Virus record (IMG/VR): IMGVR_UViG_3300035661_000009
Coordinates: 32,001 to 96,000 of that record
Source of the DNA: a virus
Reading direction: 5' to 3' (one strand)
DNA length: 64,000 nt
Under the pieces are notes generated by a model, which was given only the letters and a program-made list of their open reading frames with translations, had not been told where the DNA came from and did not search any database. A program made the position numbers and the translations under genes. Position 1 is the stretch's first letter, and each line of letters starts with the position of its first letter. Positions 41,550 through 62,608 of this stretch are shown here, in pieces.

Positions 41550-41720
41550 TTAATTACTCTGACTACCACTATAACTATAACTAACACTACCACTATAACT
41601 AACACTACCACTAACACTACCACTATTACTACCACTACCACTAAGACTACTACGCCAAAGCTTTATATACCAAGGTATTGGAGGGTAATATCTAGTAAGT
41701 CTCATAATTCTAGTTTTCAT
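41550..41720 (-). CDS. (SX)n peptide, 56 aa (not in ORF track)
   Basis: MKTRIMRLTRYYPPIPWYIKLWRSSLSGSGSNS...SQSN. Confidence 0.75.
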   Translation of the reverse strand: MKTRIMRLTRYYPPIPWYIKLWRSSLSGSGSNSGSVSGSVSYSGSVSYSYSGSQSN

Positions 41721-41744
41721 GATATTGGTTAGTTATTTATTTAG

Positions 41745-41999
41745 CTAATTACTCTTACTACCACTACCACTATTACTAACACTATTACTACCACTATTAC
41801 TAAAACTAACACTATAACTACCGCTATAACTACCGCTAAAACCATAACTACGACTACCACTACTACTATAACTAACACTACCGCTACCACTACGACTATA
41901 ACTATTACTACTACGCCAATGCTTCAAATACCAAGGTATTGAAGGATATGGTCTAGTAAGCCTAGTAAGTCTGGTATGTCTAGTTTTCATGGTTTTCAT
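41745..41999 (-). CDS. (SX)n peptide
   Basis: Conserved leader + SX core. Confidence 0.75.
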   Translation of the reverse strand: MKTMKTRHTRLTRLTRPYPSIPWYLKHWRSSNSYSRSGSGSVSYSSSGSRSYGFSGSYSGSYSVSFSNSGSNSVSNSGSGSKSN

Positions 42000-42018
42000 G
42001 GTATTGGATAGTTATTAG

Positions 42019-42258
42019 TTATTTACTCTGACTACCACTACCACTAAGACTATCACTACCACTACCACTAAGATTACCACTACCACTAACACTATAACTA
42101 CCGCTAAAACCATAACTAAAACTACCACTATTACTATGACTACCACCAAAACTGCCACTACCACTAAGACTACCACTACTACGCCAATACTTTATATACC
42201 AAGGTATTGGAGGATAACGTCTAGTAAGCCTAGTAAGTCTGGTATGTCTAGTTTTCAT
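42019..42258 (-). CDS. (SX)n peptide
   Basis: Conserved leader + SX core. Confidence 0.75.
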   Translation of the reverse strand: MKTRHTRLTRLTRRYPPIPWYIKYWRSSGSLSGSGSFGGSHSNSGSFSYGFSGSYSVSGSGNLSGSGSDSLSGSGSQSK

Positions 42259-42278
42259 GGTTTTAATTAGTTATTTAG

Positions 42279-42497
42279 CTATTTACTCTGACTACCACTA
42301 CCACTATTACTAACGCTACCACTATTACTAACGCTACCACTACTACCACTATAACTACGACTACCACTATAACTATTACTATAACTATAATTACCACTAA
42401 CACTATAACTAACACTATTACGCCAATGCTTCAAATACCAAGGTATCGAAGGATGACATCTGGTAAGTCTAGTATATCTGGTAAGTCTAGTTTTCAT
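42279..42497 (-). CDS. (SX)n peptide
   Basis: Conserved leader + SX core. Confidence 0.75.
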   Translation of the reverse strand: MKTRLTRYTRLTRCHPSIPWYLKHWRNSVSYSVSGNYSYSNSYSGSRSYSGSSGSVSNSGSVSNSGSGSQSK

Positions 42498-42528
42498 GGT
42501 ATTGGTTAGTTATTGGTTAGTTATTTAG

Positions 42529-42816
42529 CTATTTACTCTGACTACCGCTATAACTATTACTACCACTAAAACTATTACTACCACTAAAACTATAACTACC
42601 ACTACCACTAAGACTACCACTAAGACTACCACTCTGATTACCACTCTGATTACCACTACTACTATAACTAACACTACCACTAACACTACCACTATTACTA
42701 CCACTACCACTACTACTACCATGCCAAAACTTCATATACCAAGGTATTGGAGGATAATTTCTAACTACTCTGGTAATTCTAGTAAGCCTAGTATATCTGG
42801 TAAGTCTGGTTTTCAT
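42529..42816 (-). CDS. (SX)n peptide
   Basis: Conserved leader + SX core. Confidence 0.75.
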   Translation of the reverse strand: MKTRLTRYTRLTRITRVVRNYPPIPWYMKFWHGSSSGSGSNSGSVSGSVSYSSSGNQSGNQSGSLSGSLSGSGSYSFSGSNSFSGSNSYSGSQSK

Positions 42817-42836
42817 GGTATTGGTTAGTTATTTAG

Positions 42837-43130
42837 CTATTTACTCTGACTACCACTATAACTACGACTACCGCTATCACTAAGACTACCACTATAACTA
42901 CCACTATAACTACGACTACCACTAAACCTATCACTACCACTACGACTACCACCAAGACTATAACTATAATTACCACTAAGACTATAACTATAATTACCGC
43001 TAACACTATAACCACCACTACCACTACCACTATAACTACTAGTACGCCAAAACTTCAAATACCAAGGTATTGGAGGATGATTTCTAACTACTCTAGTAAG
43101 TCTAGTAAGTCTGGTATGTCTAGTTTTCAT
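42837..43130 (-). CDS. (SX)n peptide
   Basis: Conserved leader + SX core. Confidence 0.75.
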   Translation of the reverse strand: MKTRHTRLTRLTRVVRNHPPIPWYLKFWRTSSYSGSGSGGYSVSGNYSYSLSGNYSYSLGGSRSGSDRFSGSRSYSGSYSGSLSDSGSRSYSGSQSK

Positions 43131-43153
43131 GGTTTTAATTAGTTATTAGATAG

Positions 43154-43408
43154 TTATTTACTACTACCACTACCACTACGACTATAACTATCACGACCAC
43201 TACCACTATAACTAACATTATAGCTATCACTACCACTATAACCACCACCACTATCACTATCACTATAACTATCACGACCACTACCACTACCACTAACACT
43301 AGAATTACCACTACCACTATAACTACTACTACGCCAAAGCTTCAAATACCAAGGTATCGAAGGGTAATATCTAACTACTCTAGTAAGTCTAGTTTTCATG
43401 GTTTTCAT
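43154..43408 (-). CDS. (SX)n peptide
   Basis: Conserved leader + SX core. Confidence 0.75.
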   Translation of the reverse strand: MKTMKTRLTRVVRYYPSIPWYLKLWRSSSYSGSGNSSVSGSGSGRDSYSDSDSGGGYSGSDSYNVSYSGSGRDSYSRSGSGSSK

Positions 43409-43432
43409 GGTATTGGTTAGTTATTTATTTAG

Positions 43433-43470
43433 CTAATTACTCTGACTACCACTACCACCAAAACCACTTA
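43433..43470 (-). pseudogene. 3' remnant of an array copy (SGFGGSGSQSN*) lacking the leader
   Basis: Tail sequence only, fused to unrelated DNA downstream of an internal promoter. Confidence 0.55.
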
Positions 43471-43570
43471 TTTTGTTCCCAATGTTTCTTGATTGGTTTC
43501 GGTTTCCATAAAATGGCCATTATAAAGGCCACAATTGGCTTATGAGAGCCATTGACCCCGACCGCTCCCC

Positions 43571-43600
43571 ACCCTAGCACACTGGCGCGCGTGCCGTCAA
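43571..43600 (-). promoter_or_regulatory. Promoter TTGACG-N18-TAGGGT inside the array
   Basis: Member of the repeated promoter family. Confidence 0.7.
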
Positions 43601-43708
43601 GGGGTTAGAGAGCCTGCTAGGATTAAATTTATTGAGGTAAGGGCTTGACAAGTTATCGATTAAATGAAATAACCCACGCCCCTCACAGACATATTTTTAC
43701 ATTTCGTA

Positions 43709-43975
43709 TTAGCTACCAGCACCAAAACTAGTACCAAAACTACCACTACCCCTACGACTAGCACCAAAACTACCACTACCACTAAAACTAGCACCAAAAC
43801 TAGCACCAAAACTAGCACCAAAACTATAACTACCACTAAGACTACCAGTAAGACTACCACTACCACTATAACTAATACTACCATTACCACCGATACCACT
43901 ACCACTAAGACTACGCCAATAGCTTAAATGTCTAGGTATTGGAGGATACGGTCTAACTACTCTATTGATTTTCAT
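43709..43975 (-). CDS. Divergent (SX)n peptide with SFGA repeats
   Basis: Leader MKINRVVRPYPPIPRHLSYWRS. Confidence 0.7.
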   Translation of the reverse strand: MKINRVVRPYPPIPRHLSYWRSLSGSGIGGNGSISYSGSGSLTGSLSGSYSFGASFGASFGASFSGSGSFGASRRGSGSFGTSFGAGS

Positions 43976-44002
43976 GGTATTAATTAGTTATTAGTTATTT
44001 AG

Positions 44003-44245
44003 CTAATTACTCTTACTACCACTATAACTACGACTATTACTATTACTACGACTACCACTATAACTACGACTACCACTATTACTATTACTAAGACTACCAC
44101 TATAACTACGACTACCACTATAACTAAGACTAACACTATAACTAAGACTACCACTACTACTATAACTAGGCCAATAGCTTAAATACCAAGGTATTGAAGG
44201 ATACTGTCTGGTAAGTCTGGTAAATCTAGTAAGTCTAGTTTTCAT
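44003..44245 (-). CDS. (SX)n peptide
   Basis: Start reset to the conserved MKTR ATG at 44245. Confidence 0.75.
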   Translation of the reverse strand: MKTRLTRFTRLTRQYPSIPWYLSYWPSYSSSGSLSYSVSLSYSGSRSYSGSLSNSNSGSRSYSGSRSNSNSRSYSGSKSN

Positions 44246-44298
44246 GATATTGGTTAATGCTATTTTCGCTATTATTTGTGATCTTAACAACTAATAAC

Positions 44299-44550
44299 CT
44301 AATTATCACCATAACTATAACTACCACTATAACTAAGACTAACACTAAGACTAACACTAAGACTACCACTAACACTACCACTATAATTACCACTAAGACT
44401 ATAATTACCACTAAGACTATCACCAAAACTACCACTAAAACTATCACCAAAACTACCGCTACCACTACCACTATTACTACCACTATAACTACGCAAATAT
44501 CTTTTGGACCAAGGTCTTGGAGGATGATTTCTGGTAAGTCTAGTTTTCAT
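44299..44550 (-). CDS. (SX)n peptide
   Basis: Leader variant PWSKRYLRS + SX core. Confidence 0.75.
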   Translation of the reverse strand: MKTRLTRNHPPRPWSKRYLRSYSGSNSGSGSGSFGDSFSGSFGDSLSGNYSLSGNYSGSVSGSLSVSLSVSLSYSGSYSYGDN

Positions 44551-44565
44551 GATATTAATTAGTTA

Positions 44566-44826
44566 TTAGTATTTACCCTGACTACCACTATAACTACGAC
44601 TATAACTACCACTACTACTAAAACTACCGCTACTACTAAAACTACCACTATGACTACCACTATAACTACGACTAAAACTACCGCTATCACTAAGACTACC
44701 ACTACGACTATAACTAAGACTACCACTACTACTATAACTACGCCAATAGCTTAAATACCAAGGTATTGAAGGATAATTCCTTGTAAGTCTAGTAAGTCTA
44801 GTATATCTGGTAAGTCTAGTTTTCAT
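44566..44826 (-). CDS. (SX)n peptide
   Basis: Conserved leader + SX core. Confidence 0.75.
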   Translation of the reverse strand: MKTRLTRYTRLTRLTRNYPSIPWYLSYWRSYSSSGSLSYSRSGSLSDSGSFSRSYSGSHSGSFSSSGSFSSSGSYSRSYSGSQGKY

Positions 44827-44858
44827 GGTATTGGTTAGTTATTTATTTAGTTATTTAG

Positions 44859-45095
44859 CTAATTACCCTTACTACCGCTACCGCTACCACTATAACTATA
44901 GCTACCACTAACACTACCGCTACGACTACCGCTAAGACTATAACTAAAACTATAACTACCACTAACACTATAACTACCACTATAACTACTACTATAACTA
45001 CTACTATAACTACTACCATGCCAAAACTTTTTATACCAAGGTATCGAAGGATGATTTCTAACTACTCTGGTAAGTCTAGTTTTCATGGTTTTCAT
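44859..45095 (-). CDS. (SX)n peptide
   Basis: Conserved leader + SX core. Confidence 0.75.
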   Translation of the reverse strand: MKTMKTRLTRVVRNHPSIPWYKKFWHGSSYSSSYSSSYSGSYSVSGSYSFSYSLSGSRSGSVSGSYSYSGSGSGSKGN

Positions 45096-45114
45096 GATAT
45101 TGGTTAGTTATTAG

Positions 45115-45372
45115 TTAATTACCCTGACTACCACTAAGACTATAACCAGTACTACGACTAACACTATAACTAAGACTACTACTAAGACTAGTACTAAGAC
45201 TACCACTATCACTAACACTACCGCTATAACTAACACTAAAACTATCACTACCACTAAAACTATAATTACCACTATAATTATAACTAAGACTACGACTATA
45301 ACTACGCCAATAGCTTAAATACCAAGGTATCGAAGGATAATGTCTGGTAAGTCTAGTGAGTCTAGTTTTCAT
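45115..45372 (-). CDS. (SX)n peptide
   Basis: Conserved leader + SX core. Confidence 0.75.
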   Translation of the reverse strand: MKTRLTRLTRHYPSIPWYLSYWRSYSRSLSYNYSGNYSFSGSDSFSVSYSGSVSDSGSLSTSLSSSLSYSVSRSTGYSLSGSQGN

Positions 45373-45387
45373 GATATTAATTAGTTA

Positions 45388-45654
45388 TTAGTATTTACCC
45401 TGACTACCACTATTACTAAAACTACCACTATTACTAAAACTACCACTATTACTAAAACTACCACTATAACTAACACTACCGCTATGACTACCACTATAAC
45501 TAAGACTAACACTAAGACTACCACTAAGACTACCGCTACCACTATAACTAACACTATAATTATCACTATTACTACTACGCCAAAACTTTATATACCAAGG
45601 TCTTGAAGGATATGGTCTAACTACTCTAGTGAGTCTAGTAAATCTAGTTTTCAT
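45388..45654 (-). CDS. (SX)n peptide
   Basis: Conserved leader + SX core. Confidence 0.75.
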   Translation of the reverse strand: MKTRFTRLTRVVRPYPSRPWYIKFWRSSNSDNYSVSYSGSGSLSGSLSVSLSYSGSHSGSVSYSGSFSNSGSFSNSGSFSNSGSQGKY

Positions 45655-45698
45655 GGTATTGGATAGTTATTTATTTAGTTATTTATTTAGTTATTTAG

Positions 45699-45980
45699 TT
45701 ATTTACTCTGACTACCACTAAAACTAAGACTAAAACTAAGACTATCACTAACACTACCGCTACCACTATTATTACGACTACCACTATTACTACCACTATT
45801 ACTACCACTATTACTACCACTATAACTAAGACTACCGCTATAACTACGATTATAACTACCACTACCACTAACACTAAACCTATAACTAAGACTACTACTA
45901 AGACTACTAGTATGCCAAAACTTCAAATACCAAGGTATTGGAGGATGATGTCTGGTAAGTCTCATAATTCTGGTTTTCAT
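45699..45980 (-). CDS. (SX)n peptide
   Basis: Conserved leader + SX core. Confidence 0.75.
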   Translation of the reverse strand: MKTRIMRLTRHHPPIPWYLKFWHTSSLSSSLSYRFSVSGSGSYNRSYSGSLSYSGSNSGSNSGSNSGSRNNSGSGSVSDSLSFSLSFSGSQSK

Positions 45981-46012
45981 GGTATTGGATAGTTATTTAT
46001 TTAGCTAATTAG

Positions 46013-46231
46013 CTAATTACCCTTACTACCACTATAACTAAAACTATAATTACCAGTACCACTATAACTATAACTACCACTAACACTATGACCACCACCA
46101 CTATAACTAACACTATTACTAACACTATTACTAACACTATAACTACCGCTACCACTATAACTACTACTACGCCAAAGCTTTATATACCAAGGTATCGAAG
46201 GATAATGTCTAACAATTCTATTGGGTTTCAT
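46013..46231 (-). CDS. (SX)n peptide
   Basis: Start reset to the MKPNR ATG at 46231. Confidence 0.75.
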   Translation of the reverse strand: MKPNRIVRHYPSIPWYIKLWRSSSYSGSGSYSVSNSVSNSVSYSGGGHSVSGSYSYSGTGNYSFSYSGSKGN

Positions 46232-46284
46232 TGTATTGGTTAATGCTATTTTCGCTATTATTTGCGATCTTAACAACTAATAAC

Positions 46285-46563
46285 CTAATTATCGCCATAA
46301 CTACCACTACCGCTACCACTACCGCTAATACTAAGACTATAACTACCGCTACCACTAAAACTACCGCTACCACTAAAACTACCGCTACCACTATCGCTAT
46401 AACTATCACTAACACTACGACTATAACTACTACTACCACTATCACTACCACTATAACTACCACTACCACTACTACTAAAACTACCGCTACCACTACTACT
46501 ACGCCAAAACTTCATATACCAAGGTATTGGAGGATAATTTCTAACTACTCTATTGGTTTTCAT
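46285..46563 (-). CDS. (SX)n peptide
   Basis: Conserved leader + SX core. Confidence 0.75.
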   Translation of the reverse strand: MKTNRVVRNYPPIPWYMKFWRSSSGSGSFSSSGSGSYSGSDSGSSSYSRSVSDSYSDSGSGSFSGSGSFSGSGSYSLSISGSGSGSGSYGDN

Positions 46564-46575
46564 GGTATTGGTTAG

Positions 46576-46800
46576 TTATTTACTCTGACTACCACTACGA
46601 CTAACACTATAACTACGACTACCACTAACACTACCACTATCACTATAACTAAGACTATAACTAGCACTAACACTACCACTAACACTAGCACTACGACTAC
46701 GACTACCACTATCACTAAGACTACTACTATGCCAAAACTTTATGGGCCAAGGTATTGAAGGATATGGTCTAACTACTCTGGCAACTTTATTGGGTTTCAT
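46576..46800 (-). CDS. (SX)n peptide
   Basis: Leader variant MKPNKVARVVR + SX core. Confidence 0.75.
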   Translation of the reverse strand: MKPNKVARVVRPYPSIPWPIKFWHSSSLSDSGSRSRSASVSGSVSASYSLSYSDSGSVSGSRSYSVSRSGSQSK

Positions 46801-46850
46801 AGTTTCATAGTTTTATGTGTTTATGTGTTTTATGGATTTTGTAAACACAA

Positions 46851-46883
46851 ATAGCCACTACAACAATTAGCTGTAGTGGCTAT
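46851..46883 (-). terminator. Intrinsic terminator-like hairpin after the Sm-like gene
   Basis: ATAGCCACTACA/TGTAGTGGCTAT 12-bp stem followed on - by TTGTGTTT. Confidence 0.65.
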
Positions 46884-46932
46884 CAGCTTGCGACTTAATG
46901 CTTGTTACTTAATGCTTGTTACTTATTACTTA

Positions 46933-47214
46933 TTACTTCATTCGGTGAAGGACGGTGCCACCACGATCAATAATCATTTCTTCGGCGCCTTCATGCTTTT
47001 CCACGCGCTTGCCCTTGCCAGCGTAGAAATCCTTGTAATTGCCGGTTTCATAAACCGTGGCAGTATCCTTAAAAACGAAAACAGTTCCGGTCAGGGCAAC
47101 CAGCGTACCAATATACTGATACGTAGGAGTGCGGATATGATACTTCGCACCCTCAACAAAAATACCCATCTGGAGTTCACTATCAGCAACAACATCACGC
47201 ATTTCGTTGGACAT
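46933..47214 (-). CDS. Small beta protein, putative Sm/LSm-like fold
   Basis: GAKYHIRT-PTYQYIGTLVAL-TGTVFVFKDT (Sm1-like) and EMIIDRGGTV (Sm2-like); the only non-repeat gene identified in the array; higher GC3 than flanks. Confidence 0.6.
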   Translation of the reverse strand: MSNEMRDVVADSELQMGIFVEGAKYHIRTPTYQYIGTLVALTGTVFVFKDTATVYETGNYKDFYAGKGKRVEKHEGAEEMIIDRGGTVLHRMK

Positions 47215-47257
47215 ATTTTCTTTCGGGTTAAGAGTGAAGAATTAAAGAATTAAAGGG

Positions 47258-47470
47258 TTATTTACTCTGACTACCACTACGACTATAACTAGAACTACGA
47301 CTACCACTACCGCTACTACTACCACTAAACCTATCACTACCACTAAAACTAAGACTAAAACTACTACTACCACTATCACTAACACTAAGACTACCGCTAC
47401 GCCAAAACTTCAAATACCAAGGTATCGAAGGATGATTTCTAACTACTTTGGCAACTTTATTGGGTTTCAT
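47258..47470 (-). CDS. (SX)n peptide upstream of the Sm-like gene
   Basis: Leader MKPNKVAKVVRNHPSIPWYLKFWRS + SX core. Confidence 0.75.
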   Translation of the reverse strand: MKPNKVAKVVRNHPSIPWYLKFWRSGSLSVSDSGSSSFSLSFSGSDRFSGSSSGSGSRSSSYSRSGSQSK

Positions 47471-47595
47471 GGGCTAATTTGCCTAATTGATGATATAATT
47501 CAATGCCTGATTTACGCTCTTTTCAAGGTCAGAACCCATTGCTTTATTGCCTCGTTTGCGGACTACTTAGAGGGTTGGGGTGTGCGACCTGCCTC

Positions 47596-47624
47596 ACCCT
47601 ATCACGGGCGATCTGTAGCGTCAA
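47596..47624 (-). promoter_or_regulatory. Promoter TTGACG-N17-TAGGGT
   Basis: Repeated promoter family; points at the peptide + Sm-like pair. Confidence 0.75.
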
Positions 47625-47880
47625 GCGACCGTCAAGCGACCGTCAAGCGACCGACGACGGTCAAGCGGTTGCGGTTATATACAGCGACATTGGCCAATAA
47701 TTGTTACGTTTCCCATACCCATTTCATGGCAACGCTTATTACAAATATCCTGTGAAGCGGAATAATGATAAATGCTCCAAAGAAAGGCAGACGAGAACGA
47801 AACGAGCACGGTCAAACAAATAACACCAAAAATCTTCATATCAAGCCTTTTCAGTTAAATTAAAGAGTTAAATTAAAGAG

Positions 47881-48102
47881 TTAATCATCCTGACTACCAC
47901 TAAGACTATTACTACCACTAAAACTACCGCTATAACTATCACTATAACTAAGACTATCACTACCACTATCGCTAACACTAAGACTATCACTACCGCTATA
48001 ACTAAGACTATCACTACGACTACCACTATAACTACGCAAATATCTTTTGGACCAAGGTATTGAAGGATAATGTCTGGTAAGTCTGGTATGTCTAGTTTTC
48101 AT
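47881..48102 (-). CDS. (SX)n peptide (SD-rich)
   Basis: Leader variant PWSKRYLRS + SX core. Confidence 0.75.
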   Translation of the reverse strand: MKTRHTRLTRHYPSIPWSKRYLRSYSGSRSDSLSYSGSDSLSVSDSGSDSLSYSDSYSGSFSGSNSLSGSQDD

Positions 48103-48123
48103 GATATTGGTTAGTTATTTACT

Positions 48124-48354
48124 CTAACTACTACGACTACCGCTACCACTAAAACCATAACTATAATTACCACTAAAACTATAATTACCGCTATCGCTAA
48201 CACTATCACTATCACTACCACTATAACTAAGACTAACACTATCACTACCACTATGACTAACAGTATAACTATCACTATCACTACTACGCCAATACTTTAT
48301 ATACCAAGGTCTTGGAGGATGATTTCTAGTAAGTCTAGTAAGTCTAGTTTTCAT
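48124..48354 (-). CDS. (SX)n peptide
   Basis: Conserved leader + SX core. Confidence 0.75.
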   Translation of the reverse strand: MKTRLTRLTRNHPPRPWYIKYWRSSDSDSYTVSHSGSDSVSLSYSGSDSDSVSDSGNYSFSGNYSYGFSGSGSRSS

Positions 48355-48387
48355 GGTATTGGATAGTTATTTAGTTATTTATTTACT

Positions 48388-48630
48388 CTAACTACTACGA
48401 CTACCACTACCACTATAATTACCACTATAATTACCACTATAATTACCACCAAAACTACCACTATCACTATCACTATCACTAACACTAAGACTACCGCTAT
48501 AACTACCACTATTACTAAAACTACCGCTACCGCTACAACTACTACGCCAATACTTCAAATACCAAGGTCTTGGAGGATGATTTCTAACTACTCTGGTAAG
48601 CCTGGTAAGTCTAGTAAGTCTAGTTTTCAT
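48388..48630 (-). CDS. (SX)n peptide
   Basis: Conserved leader + SX core. Confidence 0.75.
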   Translation of the reverse strand: MKTRLTRLTRLTRVVRNHPPRPWYLKYWRSSCSGSGSFSNSGSYSGSLSVSDSDSDSGSFGGNYSGNYSGNYSGSGSRSS

Positions 48631-48663
48631 GGTATTGGATAGTTATTTAGTTATTTATTTACT

Positions 48664-61136: not shown

Positions 61137-61394
61137 TTAATTACCACTACTGCCACTAACACTATAACTGCCACTAACACTATAACTACCACTCTGACTA
61201 CTACTACTACTATAACTACTGCCACTAACACTATAACTACCACTAAAACTATAACTAACACTACCACTAACACTAAAACTATCTCTATCACTACCACTAT
61301 AACTATAATTACCACTACGCCAATGCTTCAAATACCAAGGTATTGGAGGATAATTTCTAACTACTCTAGTATGACTAGTAAGTCTAGTTTTCAT
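61137..61394 (-). CDS. (SX)n peptide, satellite copy
   Basis: Same leader and core as the main array. Confidence 0.75.
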   Translation of the reverse strand: MKTRLTSHTRVVRNYPPIPWYLKHWRSGNYSYSGSDRDSFSVSGSVSYSFSGSYSVSGSSYSSSSSQSGSYSVSGSYSVSGSSGN

Positions 61395-61404
61395 AATTAC
61401 TTAT

Positions 61405-61695
61405 TTAATTACCACTACTGCCACTAACACTATAACTACCACTATAACTACTACCACCAAAACTACTACCACTATAACTACCACTATTACTAACACCATT
61501 ACTGACACTACCACTACCACTATAACTACGACTACGACTACCGCTACCACTATAACTACTACCACCAAAACTACCACTACCACTACCACTAAGACTACCA
61601 CTATAACTATTACTACTACGCCAATGCTTCAAATACCAAAGTATTGAAGGATGACATCTGGTAAGTCTGGTAAGTCTGGTAAGTCTAGTTTTCAT
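61405..61695 (-). CDS. (SX)n peptide, satellite copy
   Basis: Same leader and core as the main array. Confidence 0.75.
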   Translation of the reverse strand: MKTRLTRLTRLTRCHPSILWYLKHWRSSNSYSGSLSGSGSGSFGGSSYSGSGSRSRSYSGSGSVSNGVSNSGSYSGSSFGGSSYSGSYSVSGSSGN

Positions 61696-61708
61696 GAATT
61701 TGATTAAT

Positions 61709-61805
61709 AGACATGTAGGAATCGAACCTACCTCTCCAAAGTTTCACCAGAACTTCATAGGAATCGAACCTATCTTCTAAGATATCACCAGATTTTATAA
61801 TGTCC
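61709..61805 (-). ncRNA. tRNA-like RNA with two T-arms and no anticodon arm
   Basis: GGACAT...ATGTCT closing stem; ATAGG-TTCGATT-CCTAT and GTAGG-TTCGATT-CCTAC, each preceded by a CTGGTGA loop. Confidence 0.6.
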
Positions 61806-61822
61806 ACCTCTTACGAGACGGC

Positions 61823-62125
61823 TTAAACAGTTTCAGTTGAATCTGTTGAATCTGTTGAATCTGTTTCTGTTTCTGAAGAAATAGCTGTAACTACAACATC
61901 TTCAGATCCCGTAGGCGTAGGATCTTCATCTAACCCTAGGTCGCGAAGTAAATTCGCACCTACATCTGAATCAGTTAATCCGGTTACATCTACTGAGATT
62001 ACACCAAGGCTCTTGCCAACTAGATAGTTGTTGGCTGGGTCTTTAAGAAAGGCCTTTAGGTTCTTGGGTGTTACAGAGATTATGCTTCCATTGTTTTCTA
62101 CAATTAAATTTTTCGGGCGAGCCAT
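61823..62125 (-). CDS. Hypothetical protein (MARPK start, acidic tail)
   Basis: First ORF after promoter 62234-62262. Confidence 0.7.
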   Translation of the reverse strand: MARPKNLIVENNGSIISVTPKNLKAFLKDPANNYLVGKSLGVISVDVTGLTDSDVGANLLRDLGLDEDPTPTGSEDVVVTAISSETETDSTDSTDSTETV

Positions 62126-62233
62126 TGTGTCTTCTTTCTATTGATGTTCGAGGTTACTTTATTGTACTTTACTACGTTTCGGTTTCTTATTCTTACTCTT
62201 ATTGCTAACTTACCTTACCGCTCCTACTTCCTC

Positions 62234-62262
62234 ACCCTACCACACCCCTTAACTGTTTGCAA
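62234..62262 (-). promoter_or_regulatory. Promoter TTGCAA-N17-TAGGGT
   Basis: Repeated family. Confidence 0.7.
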
Positions 62263-62608
62263 CGGCTACTGCCGGATTACCTGTTGACTCTACATAAGTA
62301 GTAGAATCAACCCCAACACCAGATAGATCAATTAATGCATTTGCTAGCGCCCGAGCGGCAGCTACGTGGCCACCACGCTTAGGATTAAACTTATCTAGTG
62401 GATTGCGCTTACTTACACCTACATAACTTCGTCCCATCTTGTTACCGATCAACACTACCATAAAATTGCCATCTCGGTGAATACTCTCTACCTTATAATC
62501 AGATAGAAGGTTGGCTGTGTGATTCATAGTATCTGAATCAAAGCCAGACTTCTTAAGGTTACGTACAACGCCCGGCAACATCGTGGATAGATCTAGTTCT
62601 AGGTTCAT
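62249..62608 (-). CDS. Hypothetical protein
   Basis: GVSKRNPLDKFNPKRG..VA..RA pattern. Confidence 0.7.
   Translation of the reverse strand: MNLELDLSTMLPGVVRNLKKSGFDSDTMNHTANLLSDYKVESIHRDGNFMVVLIGNKMGRSYVGVSKRNPLDKFNPKRGGHVAAARALANALIDLSGVGVDSTTYVESTGNPAVAVANS

What the first reader, a model, noticed from the sequence alone, without database searches (positions are those of the whole stretch)
61709..61805. tRNA-like RNA with two tandem D-loop/T-arm 'elbow' modules and no anticodon arm
Seen (- strand, 97 nt): GGACAU..AUC-UGGU-GAU..AUAGG-UUCGAUU-CCUAU-G-AAGUU-CUGGUGA-AACUU..GUAGG-UUCGAUU-CCUAC-AUGUCU. There are two perfect 5-bp T-arms with canonical UUCGAUU loops that differ by a compensatory A-U to G-C pair. 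Each is preceded by a GG-containing D-like loop, and a 6-bp closing stem stacks on the second T-arm. It ends 13 nt upstream of the ATG of a satellite (SX)n gene. Known: bacterial Y RNAs and tmRNA use tRNA-elbow mimicry. Inference: a functional tRNA mimic (decoy for tRNA-targeting proteins, RNase P/Z processing signal, or partner of the Sm-like protein) rather than a decayed tRNA.
Basis: partly seen in the sequence, partly recalled or inferred. Interest (0 to 1): 0.7.

Follow-up and report, generated by a model that had tools for sequence, protein, structure and literature searches.

The report
Phage twin-elbow tRNA look-alike RNA
A 160-kb uncultured phage carries a roughly 100-base tRNA-derived gene with a tRNA-like end stem and two copies of the tRNA "elbow" but no anticodon arm; the same design recurs in many other phage sequences, so it is probably a working non-decoding tRNA mimic, though nothing yet shows that it is made or what it binds.

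Summary
On the minus strand, 61707-61806 holds a 7-bp closing stem that abuts a perfect T-arm. This gives the 7+5 = 12-bp stack of a tRNA. Inside it are two tandem modules, each a UGGU-loop mini-hairpin, a linker and a T-arm. There is no anticodon arm.

ARAGORN and Rfam gathering thresholds do not call the element. The best weak hit is tRNA-Sec at 28 bits against a cut-off of 47.

The two modules are 23/23 identical in the D-loop-like octamer and the T-arm core. They are only 9/21 identical elsewhere, and the one T-stem difference is compensatory. That pattern argues against neutral decay.

I found no diverged orthologue. Three other assemblies carry a 100% identical copy, so this locus gives no covariation.

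The architecture recurs widely in phage and metagenome contigs, with enriched UGGU/CUGGUG motifs and enriched closing stems. One related family shows strong covariation, and another has two or three modules inside a compensated stem. None of these is in Rfam 15 or in the papers I searched.

No Ro60 gene and no recurrent partner gene was found.

My best reading is a selected, non-decoding tRNA mimic that tRNA-maturation enzymes excise. Its target is unknown. Earlier notes of this scan report related phage tRNA mimics on other DNA.

The parts
61707..61806 (-). Whole tRNA-like element: the 7-bp-register closing stem and everything inside it, plus the unpaired U at 61707 in the discriminator position
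   Evidence: Sequence. Weak tRNA-Sec alignment over 61707-61807. Closing-stem search.
61800..61806 (-). 5' strand of the closing (acceptor-like) stem, UGGACAU
   Evidence: Pairs with 61708-61714. Pair probabilities are 0.5-0.92. Base pairs 3-7, and the U8 A9 that follow, are identical to the phage's own tRNA-Pro(UGG).
61784..61793 (-). D-like mini-hairpin 1 (AUC, UGGU loop, GAU). Counting from U61806 as position 1, A14, G18 and G19 fall at their canonical tRNA positions.
61757..61773 (-). T-arm 1: 5-bp stem with a canonical 7-nt T-loop
61739..61755 (-). D-like hairpin 2: 5 bp with a 7-nt loop CUGGUGA, or 3 bp with a UGGU loop
   Evidence: Model R1 aligns it to the covarying NN-UGGU-NN hairpin of the related family.
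61715..61731 (-). T-arm 2. It differs from T-arm 1 only in the outer pair (G-C instead of A-U).
61708..61714 (-). 3' strand of the closing stem. It starts directly after T-arm 2, giving a 12-bp stack.
61807..61818 (-). 4-bp hairpin with a GUAA tetraloop. It lies between the upstream stop codon and the closing stem and abuts the predicted RNase P site.
   Evidence: Read from the sequence. No function was tested.
61405..61695 (-). Downstream (SX)n peptide gene. Its ATG is 12-13 nt after the element.
61823..62125 (-). Upstream 100-aa ORF of unknown function. Its stop codon is 16 nt before the closing stem.

Best explanation
The element is a selected, non-decoding RNA gene derived from a tRNA. It probably descends from the phage's own tRNA lineage, since its acceptor stem resembles that of the phage's tRNA-Pro. 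It is transcribed on the minus strand together with the small ORFs around it.

The proposed fold has three parts. First, a 7-bp closing stem stacks on T-arm 2 to form the 12-bp acceptor/T minihelix of a tRNA. Second, the UGGU loop of hairpin 2 docks on T-loop 2 as a D-loop does. Third, T-arm 1 and hairpin 1 form a second elbow where the anticodon arm would otherwise be.

The minihelix plus elbow is the substrate that RNase P and the 3'-end and CCA enzymes read. I therefore infer that the host tRNA-maturation machinery cuts the element out, on the 5' side before U61806 and on the 3' side near U61707. That would give a stable RNA of about 100 nt that offers two elbows and cannot be read on a ribosome. 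As a by-product, the cut would separate the upstream message from the (SX)n gene.

The most likely job of the free RNA is to occupy a protein that recognises tRNA by its elbow and acceptor end, such as a host tRNA-targeting defence nuclease or a tRNA-processing enzyme.

Shown here: the anatomy, the constraint pattern and the recurrence of the design. Inferred: transcription, the 3-D fold, processing and the target.
For: (1) The anatomy is exact. There are two perfect T-arms, two identical UCUGGUGA octamers and a closing stem abutting T-arm 2, with U8, A14, G18 and G19 in the canonical register.

(2) The two modules are 23/23 identical in the octamer and the T-arm core but only 9/21 identical elsewhere. 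The single T-stem difference is compensatory.

(3) Both modules lack an anticodon arm. The arm was therefore lost before the duplication, so the RNA persisted as a non-decoder.

(4) The design recurs in other phages:
- Among 110 distinct twin-T-arm elements from IMG/VR, UGGU lies between the arms in 48 (17.9 expected; maximum 29 in 200 shuffles). CUGGUG lies there in 17 (1.2 expected).
- Closing stems scoring 8 or more occur in 20 of 123 elements, against 2.1 expected.
- In 30 metagenome elements selected only on T1-CUGGUG-T2, UGGU precedes T-arm 1 in 25 (4.8 expected). A closing stem scoring 6 or more occurs in 20 (6.2 expected).
- Some of these elements end in N-CCA.

(5) In a related 20-sequence family, 96.5% of cells are paired. 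There are 61 double-sided changes against 17 in shuffles (0 of 500 shuffles reach this). The NN-UGGU-NN hairpin covaries.

(6) A model built from that family without the window matches 61713-61778 end to end at 44 bits.

(7) A further family keeps a long compensated closing stem around two or three such modules.

(8) There is a precedent. T4 RNAC carries a T-arm/acceptor minihelix next to the T4 tRNA genes. Its role is still unknown (PMC3014915).
Against: There is no diverged orthologue. The only other copies are 100% identical, so this locus has no covariation of its own.

The 44-bit model score is only slightly above the 30-40 bits that any pair of closely spaced T-arms obtains.

Thermodynamic folding does not favour the proposed fold.

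The motif columns in the 23/23 test were chosen after looking at the alignment.

Hairpin 1 is only 3 bp and its D-stem is degenerate.

No CCA is encoded, and the closing stem holds one to three G-U pairs.

No partner protein or target was identified.
Confidence: 0.55

Rival explanations
1. The element is purely a cis-acting processing or stability signal, like the t-elements of plant mitochondria or mascRNA. In this reading the tRNA-like fold exists only so that RNase P and RNase Z cut the polycistronic transcript just ahead of the (SX)n gene, or so that it blocks exonucleases. The excised RNA has no job of its own.
For: The element fills the whole 127-nt gap between two same-strand ORFs and ends 12-13 nt before the ATG. 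At the other 24 (SX)n genes an AT-rich spacer sits in that position, and none of those genes has a Shine-Dalgarno sequence. The 12-bp minihelix is the minimal RNase P substrate (established knowledge).
Against: One elbow is enough for RNase P, so this reading does not explain why a second perfect T-arm and octamer are kept. It also does not explain why homologous RNAs elsewhere hold two or three modules. Analogous elements in other contigs sit in varied contexts, often right after a tRNA or well away from the next start codon.
Confidence: 0.2
2. The element is a decaying tRNA pseudogene: a tRNA-Pro-like paralogue that lost its anticodon arm, suffered an internal tandem duplication, and has no function.
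For: There are no orthologues with which to show constraint. The acceptor stem resembles the phage's tRNA-Pro. The D-stem of module 1 is degenerate. Phage tRNA regions are recombination-prone. In bacterial genomes, closely spaced T-arms are mostly a tRNA followed by a duplicated 3' fragment, that is, scars.
Against: The duplicates have diverged to 43% identity outside the motifs yet keep 23/23 identity inside them, plus a compensatory pair. The flanks of the two T-arms are not repeats of each other, unlike the bacterial scars. The full design recurs with unrelated sequences far above shuffle expectation.
Confidence: 0.15
3. The element is an unusual decoding tRNA. One version is a class II tRNA whose 'anticodon arm' is T-arm 1 (anticodon CGA, serine), with hairpin 2 as a long variable arm. 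The other version is a tRNA-Thr(GGU) whose anticodon arm is hairpin 2.
For: The tRNA-Sec model aligns the element in the class II way at 28.1 bits. ARAGORN calls four analogous elements tRNA-Ser(cga). At an 80% threshold ARAGORN draws a tRNA-Thr(ggt) here, and the loop CUGGUGA does have U33 and a purine at position 37.
Against: The score is below every curated cut-off. Seven extra nucleotides lie between the D region and the supposed anticodon stem, and seven more after the supposed variable arm. The loop of T-arm 1 is a consensus T-loop with U at position 37. The same octamer occurs in both hairpins, and CUGGUG recurs between T-arms in other phages. An anticodon would not behave that way. The serines of the (SX)n genes are almost all AGU, which neither anticodon reads.
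Confidence: 0.03
4. The element is the RNA subunit of a ribonucleoprotein, a Y-RNA-like partner of a Ro/TROVE-type or Sm-like protein encoded by the phage or its host.
For: YrlA Y RNAs contain an anticodon-less tRNA-like domain (PMC4201824). Proteins with DUF2828 and DUF7788 domains lie within 3 kb of twin-T-arm elements in five loci.
Against: There is no TROVE or DUF2828 match in this 99%-complete genome. There is no YrlA hit at E<=10. No neighbouring gene is shared across 160 loci. Five other phage records with family members lack DUF2828 (in which the control genomes did not ring either). The 93-aa protein matches no Pfam family.
Confidence: 0.05

Closest known systems
YrlA-type bacterial and phage Y RNAs (Rfam RF02553; Chen et al. 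2014, PMC4201824)
   Same: A tRNA-derived, non-decoding RNA with a T-arm and a D-arm forming an elbow and no anticodon arm. Some YrlA RNAs are cut by RNase P and receive CCA.
   Different: YrlA has one elbow, with the arms in permuted order (T-arm, acceptor-like hairpin, D-arm). It has a long Ro-binding stem and lies next to a Ro60 gene. The element here has two elbows in tRNA order, a short closing stem, no Ro60 gene and no model hit.
Phage T4 RNAC (species 1 RNA) and RNAD
   Same: Small RNAs encoded among phage tRNA genes. RNAC ends in a T-arm plus acceptor-like stem. Their function is unknown (PMC3014915, PMC9697503).
   Different: RNAC is 139 nt with a single T-arm and a long body that does not resemble a tRNA. 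It has no tandem elbow modules and no sequence similarity to this element.
The family modelled here as R1 (alignment A4; apparently undescribed)
   Same: Two T-arms separated by a covarying NN-UGGU-NN mini-hairpin and a purine-rich linker ending in GAG. The model aligns the window end to end.
   Different: Family members usually start right after a tRNA 3' end. They have an extra conserved hairpin after T-arm 1 and a conserved 3' extension, and they have no closing stem. They score 53-84 bits against 44 bits for the window.
tRNA-like processing modules (mascRNA/menRNA, plant mitochondrial t-elements) and the tRNA-like domain of tmRNA
   Same: An acceptor/T-arm minihelix with a reduced or absent anticodon arm, read by RNase P, RNase Z and the CCA-adding enzyme. 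This comparison rests on established knowledge and was not tested here.
   Different: Those modules have one elbow. tmRNA carries a large mRNA-like insert, and ARAGORN finds no tmRNA here.
Class II tRNAs and tRNA-Sec (RF01852)
   Same: Similar length, a long extra arm, a 4-nt UGGU D-loop as in tRNA-Sec, and an acceptor/T stack.
   Different: The score is 28.1 bits against a cut-off of 47. The arm in the anticodon position is a T-arm, the junction spacings are wrong, and there is no UCA anticodon.

Membership tests
tRNA (RF00005 / ARAGORN) | Detected by the curated model or program at its default threshold | tested here: not met
   ARAGORN finds 4 tRNAs in the window but not this element. Rfam gathering thresholds find the same four tRNAs only.
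tRNA (RF00005 / ARAGORN) | An anticodon arm in the canonical position (5-bp stem and 7-nt loop, one nucleotide after the D-stem) | tested here: not met
   No such arm exists. Both alternative readings need 7-40 extra nucleotides.
tRNA (RF00005 / ARAGORN) | A 7-bp acceptor stem stacked on a 5-bp T-stem, a consensus T-loop, and G18 G19 in the D-loop | tested here: met
   61800-61806 pairs with 61708-61714 and abuts T-arm 2. G18 and G19 lie at 61789 and 61788 when counted from U61806.
tRNA-Sec (RF01852) | Model score at or above 47 bits, and a UCA anticodon | tested here: not met
   28.1 bits, E = 0.0033. The loop aligned as the anticodon loop is a T-loop.
YrlA Y RNA (RF02553) | Model score at or above 69 bits | tested here: not met
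   No YrlA match at E<=10 in 61300-62300.
YrlA Y RNA (RF02553) | Encoded near a Ro60/TROVE gene | tested here: not met
   PF05731 is absent from the 160-kb genome, while the control genomes rang. DUF2828 is also absent.
YrlA Y RNA (RF02553) | Permuted arm order (T-arm, acceptor-like hairpin, D-arm) inside a long Ro-binding stem | tested here: not met
   The order here is D-like hairpin then T-arm, twice, inside a 7-9-bp stem. The YrlA layout is as described in PMC4201824.
tmRNA | Detected by ARAGORN in tmRNA mode; has a tag reading frame | tested here: not met
   Nothing was found even at an 80% threshold.
R1 family (alignment A4, defined here) | Two T-arms with the covarying NN-UGGU-NN hairpin and a GAG-ending linker before T-arm 2 | tested here: met
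   Full-length alignment at 44 bits, with UC-UGGU-GA in the hairpin columns.
R1 family (alignment A4, defined here) | A conserved hairpin directly after T-arm 1, a conserved 3' extension, and a score in the family range | tested here: not met
   The hairpin is deleted in the window alignment. The 3' extension seen is absent. Family-like hits score 53-84 bits, and generic twin T-arms score 30-40 bits.
Twin-elbow design (closing stem, UGGU, T-arm, UGGU, T-arm, closing stem). This is an architectural class, not a proven homologous family. | All five elements are present, with the closing stem 0-2 nt after T-arm 2 | tested here: met
   The window meets this. Examples elsewhere include L123/L127, L144, L151, L136, L142 and L011.

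The most novel reading that the evidence does not exclude
Arrays of two or three tRNA elbows inside one closing stem are a widespread, undescribed class of phage RNAs. They act as multivalent decoys: each elbow captures one copy of a host protein that recognises tRNA by its elbow (a tRNA-cleaving defence nuclease, or RNase P or RNase Z). This protects the phage's and the host's real tRNAs during infection. The window's element would be a minimal two-elbow member of this class.
Probability: 0.2. Interest if true: 0.85.

Novelty: new variant of a known kind. Interest (0 to 1): 0.6.

Why it matters
Phage-encoded tRNA look-alikes have been known since T4 RNAC and RNAD, and they remain without a function. 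This element is a very compact example that makes the logic visible. Only the parts of a tRNA that proteins and RNase P read, the acceptor/T-arm helix and the elbow, are kept, and the elbow is kept twice.

The same design is found in more than a hundred phage and metagenome contigs. In one family it has two or three modules. That recurrence points to a general, modular way of presenting tRNA elbows.

If these RNAs are decoys for tRNA-targeting defences or for tRNA-processing enzymes, they would be a new layer of the phage-host conflict over tRNAs.

There is also a practical consequence. ARAGORN labels some of these elements tRNA-Ser(CGA), which would inflate the tRNA counts reported for phages.

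Tried and rejected
Searches for relatives of this locus:
- Nothing in INPHARED phages by blastn or megablast.
- No hit in IMG/VR for a pattern specific to this element.
- No relatives of the 119-aa neighbouring protein.
- The 100-aa neighbouring protein occurs only in the same phage. Three other assemblies carry the element 100% identical.
- The one diverged relative found through the primase-helicase (69% identity) is a 50-kb fragment without T-arms.
- Loci with homologues of the 344-aa protein are not syntenic and hold no twin T-arm.

A covariance model of the full closing-stem design could not be built. MAFFT scattered the 5' strands, so the alignment was unusable.

Free-energy folding is uninformative here.

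The promoter and terminator scans found nothing above shuffle level. The one 'terminator' reported is T-arm 2 itself.

Partner proteins: clustering 1,597 neighbouring ORFs gave no gene shared beyond groups of closely related phages. TROVE and DUF2828 are absent from this genome. In the DUF2828 searches the control genomes did not ring, so searches are weak on their own. My own phmmer check supports the absence in G000 only.

Literature: four full-text searches found no description of twin-T-arm phage RNAs.

Rejected readings: tRNA-Ser(CGA), tRNA-Thr(GGU), tmRNA, an att-site scar, and a chance match.

Full report
THE OBSERVATION

In 5' to 3' order it contains:
- a closing stem: 61800-61806 pairs with 61708-61714, giving 7 bp (up to 9 bp with G-U pairs);
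- a 3-bp hairpin with a UGGU loop (61793-61784);
- a 10-nt linker;
- T-arm 1 (61773-61757);
- one G;
- a second hairpin (61755-61739) whose loop holds the same UGGU;
- a 7-nt linker;
- T-arm 2 (61731-61715).

The 3' strand of the closing stem starts directly after T-arm 2. The two T-arms have identical loops and differ only in the outer pair, A-U against G-C. The composite pattern (the octamer UCUGGUGA, 10-14 nt, then a 15-nt T-arm core) occurs twice in the window and never in 100 shuffles.

In the whole 160-kb phage genome there are 12 ARAGORN tRNAs. The only T-arms outside them are these two and one in a second odd tRNA-like element that lies outside the window.

WHAT IT IS NOT

ARAGORN and Rfam gathering thresholds do not call the element. 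With permissive thresholds the only related hit is tRNA-Sec, at 28.1 bits against a cut-off of 47. That alignment reads T-arm 1 as the anticodon arm and hairpin 2 as a long variable arm.

ARAGORN at 80% of its threshold draws a poor tRNA-Thr(GGU) that uses hairpin 2 as the anticodon arm. It finds no tmRNA.

Both decoding readings need 7 to 40 extra nucleotides at the junctions. Both also ignore that the same octamer sits in each hairpin. There is no YrlA match at E<=10.

ANATOMY IN tRNA TERMS

The 7-bp stem plus the 5-bp T-stem, with no nucleotide between them, makes the 12-bp acceptor/T helix of a tRNA. Counting from U61806 as position 1, positions 8, 14, 18 and 19 hold U, A, G and G, as in tRNAs.

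Each module is therefore a tRNA body without the anticodon arm: a D region, a linker of about the length of position 26 plus the variable loop, and a T-arm.

Base pairs 3-7 of the stem, and the U8 A9 that follow, are identical to the phage's own tRNA-Pro(UGG). This suggests descent from the phage's tRNA stock. The similarity could still be chance, at a rough odds of 1 in 1,000.

A 4-bp hairpin with a GUAA loop (61818-61807) fills the gap between the upstream stop codon (61825-61823) and the stem.

CONSTRAINT WITHIN THE ELEMENT

When the two modules are aligned, they are 23/23 identical in the octamer and the 15-nt T-arm core. They are 9/21 identical in the remaining columns. I chose the motif columns after looking at the alignment, so the nominal probability of 3e-9 overstates the case. 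Even so, patchy identity together with a compensatory stem change is what selection on both elbows would leave behind.

Neither module has an anticodon arm. The arm was therefore lost before the duplication, which means a non-decoding RNA was kept long enough to duplicate and diverge.

NO ORTHOLOGUES

The element has no diverged relative in the collections I could search. The same phage is present in three other assemblies, and there the region is 100% identical. This locus therefore offers no covariation, which is the main weakness of the case.

The nearest isolate by primase-helicase is Myxococcus phage Mx1, at 41% identity.

THE DESIGN RECURS

Two T-loops 20-45 nt apart are too close together to belong to two separate tRNAs.

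In 110 distinct elements from that scan:
- UGGU lies between the arms in 48 (17.9 expected; maximum 29 in 200 shuffles);
- CUGGUG lies there in 17 (1.2 expected).

A stem that closes the element and abuts T-arm 2 scores 8 or more in 20 of 123 elements (2.1 expected). It scores 7 or more in 31 (7 expected).

A second, independent set comes from metagenomes. These 30 distinct elements were selected only for T-arm, CUGGUG, T-arm. In this set:
- UGGU precedes T-arm 1 in 25 (4.8 expected);
- CUGGUG precedes T-arm 1 in 11 (0.3 expected);
- a closing stem scoring 6 or more occurs in 20 (6.2 expected).

Several elements have the window's layout with unrelated stem sequences. Some end in N-CCA, for example L123/L127, L048 and L071. 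The pair L078 and L132 differ by compensatory changes in the closing stem, hairpin 2 and T-arm 2 (judged by eye).

Bacterial genomes serve as a contrast. The same pattern there is mostly a complete tRNA followed by a repeat of its own 3' end, which is an integration scar. CUGGUG is rare there, in 4 of 131 elements. The window's element has no such repeat.

RELATED FAMILIES

One subset forms a true family. It usually starts a few bases after a tRNA 3' end and has a highly conserved core and a conserved 3' extension.

On a 20-sequence core alignment:
- 96.5% of cells are paired;
- 61 cells carry changes on both sides, against 17 in shuffles (0 of 500 shuffles reach this);
- slid controls give 38-57% pairing;
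- both pairs of the NN-UGGU-NN hairpin covary.

Rfam 15 has no family covering these elements.

A covariance model built from this family, without the window, matches 61713-61778 over its full length at 44 bits. The window's UC-UGGU-GA falls in the hairpin columns, and the family's extra hairpin is deleted. Any twin T-arm scores 30-40 bits with this model, and family-like hits score 53-84 bits. I therefore read this as the same module and design, not as membership of the family.

Another family (L133, L137, L154, L157) has a long closing stem with compensatory changes. It encloses two modules in some members and three in others. The elbow module therefore behaves as a repeatable unit.

CONTEXT

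The element fills the 127-nt gap between a 100-aa ORF of unknown function and the first of two satellite (SX)n peptide genes. All of these are on the minus strand, in a region of small ORFs interspersed with tRNAs.

None of the 25 (SX)n genes has a Shine-Dalgarno sequence; all have short AT-rich leaders. The 13-nt leader after the element is therefore not unusual for this phage.

No promoter or terminator stands out.

No candidate partner was found:
- The genome has no Ro60/TROVE or DUF2828 gene.
- The 93-aa 'Sm-like' protein matches no Pfam family.
- Across 160 loci no neighbouring gene is shared beyond close relatives.

Any partner is therefore more likely a host factor.

MECHANISM

By established knowledge, RNase P recognises the acceptor/T-arm helix and the elbow, not the anticodon arm. 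The 3'-end enzymes and the CCA-adding enzyme likewise accept minihelices.

The element offers exactly that substrate. I infer excision from the operon transcript before U61806 and near U61707, giving a stable RNA of about 100 nt.

T-arm 1 is joined to hairpin 2 by a single G. If the two stack, they form an 8-10-bp helix in the place of the D-stem/anticodon-stem helix. The second elbow would then cap the end where the anticodon would be. This is a model and was not tested.

The kept duplication, and the two-or-three-module relatives, argue that the elbows themselves are the working surface. I therefore favour a decoy or competitor for an elbow-reading protein over a mere cutting signal. I hold that preference weakly.

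WHAT IS KNOWN, AND NOVELTY

The closest described things are:
- YrlA Y RNAs, which have an anticodon-less tRNA-like domain. Some are cut by RNase P and receive CCA (PMC4201824).
- T4 RNAC and RNAD. RNAC ends in a T-arm/acceptor minihelix. Their roles are still unknown (PMC3014915; PMC9697503).
- The tRNA-like domain of tmRNA.
- tRNA-like processing modules.

The element fails the defining tests for tRNA, tRNA-Sec, YrlA and tmRNA. Tandem elbow modules inside one acceptor-like stem were not found in Rfam 15 or in four full-text searches.

Earlier AI notes of this scan report related phage tRNA mimics on other DNA, and this same element was noted a second time on this window. I treated those notes as leads only.

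I class the element as a new variant of a known kind.

LIMITS

- The class-level statistics rest on pattern-selected sets with an invariant T-loop, so they say nothing about variation in the T-loop.
- The closing-stem controls shuffle only the 3' flank.
- Architectural recurrence is not homology.
- Nothing here shows that the RNA exists in cells.

Noticed in passing
L054:4538-4679, L013:6817-6958 (-), L052:7847-7988 (-) and about 20 others (alignments A1 and A4): A conserved phage RNA family that usually starts a few bases after a tRNA 3' end. It consists of a T-arm, a small conserved hairpin, an NN-UGGU-NN hairpin, a second T-arm and a conserved 3' extension containing another CUCUGGUGAGA-like motif. 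Covariation is strong, and Rfam 15 has no matching family.
   Followed up: partly
L133:2-137, L137:10286-10421 (-), L154:2370-2541 (-), L157:1081-1260: Homologous RNAs with a long, compensated closing stem that encloses two elbow modules in some members (L133, L137) and three in others (L154, L157). The module number varies within one family.
   Followed up: partly
Outside the window: G000 C1:112396-112480 (+), about 16.4 kb beyond the window end: A second tRNA-like gene that ARAGORN does not call. It has good acceptor, D and T arms, but the anticodon arm is collapsed to a 4-bp stem with a 5-nt loop. The phage therefore carries at least two non-decoding tRNA look-alikes.
   Followed up: no
L011:591-684, L067:6252-6349, L072:935-1021, L122:698-788: ARAGORN labels twin-T-arm elements as tRNA-Ser(cga) because it reads the first T-loop as an anticodon loop. 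This is a likely systematic mis-annotation in phage genomes.
   Followed up: partly
L113:3554-5074 (-), with relatives in L091, L080, L108 and L030: Proteins with DUF2828 and DUF7788 domains lie within 3 kb of twin-T-arm elements in five loci. They are absent from five other phage records that carry the family, and from this genome. This is a possible lead to a protein partner for a subset of the elements.
   Followed up: partly
window 41720-48885 and 61394-61695 (-): All 25 (SX)n peptide genes lack a Shine-Dalgarno sequence and have AT-rich leaders such as ...aaccaatacc before the ATG. This fits a host that initiates translation without Shine-Dalgarno pairing (for example Bacteroidota). The host is not known.
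   Followed up: no
window 72358-72433 (-) compared with 61800-61806 / 61708-61714: The phage's tRNA-Pro(UGG) shares acceptor base pairs 3-7 and U8 A9 with the element. This hints that the element arose from a paralogue of that tRNA.
   Followed up: no
L106:3743-3851, L130 (-), L146:201-314: tRNA-like genes with a full cloverleaf, an abnormal anticodon loop (6-bp stem with a 6-nt loop, or an 8-nt loop), and an extra T-arm before the true T-arm.
   Followed up: no
L180, L204, L241 and about 60 other genome-contig loci: In bacterial genomes, closely spaced T-arms are mostly a complete tRNA followed by a direct repeat of its own 3' end. These are integration or excision scars. They are a useful negative contrast to the phage elements.
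   Followed up: partly
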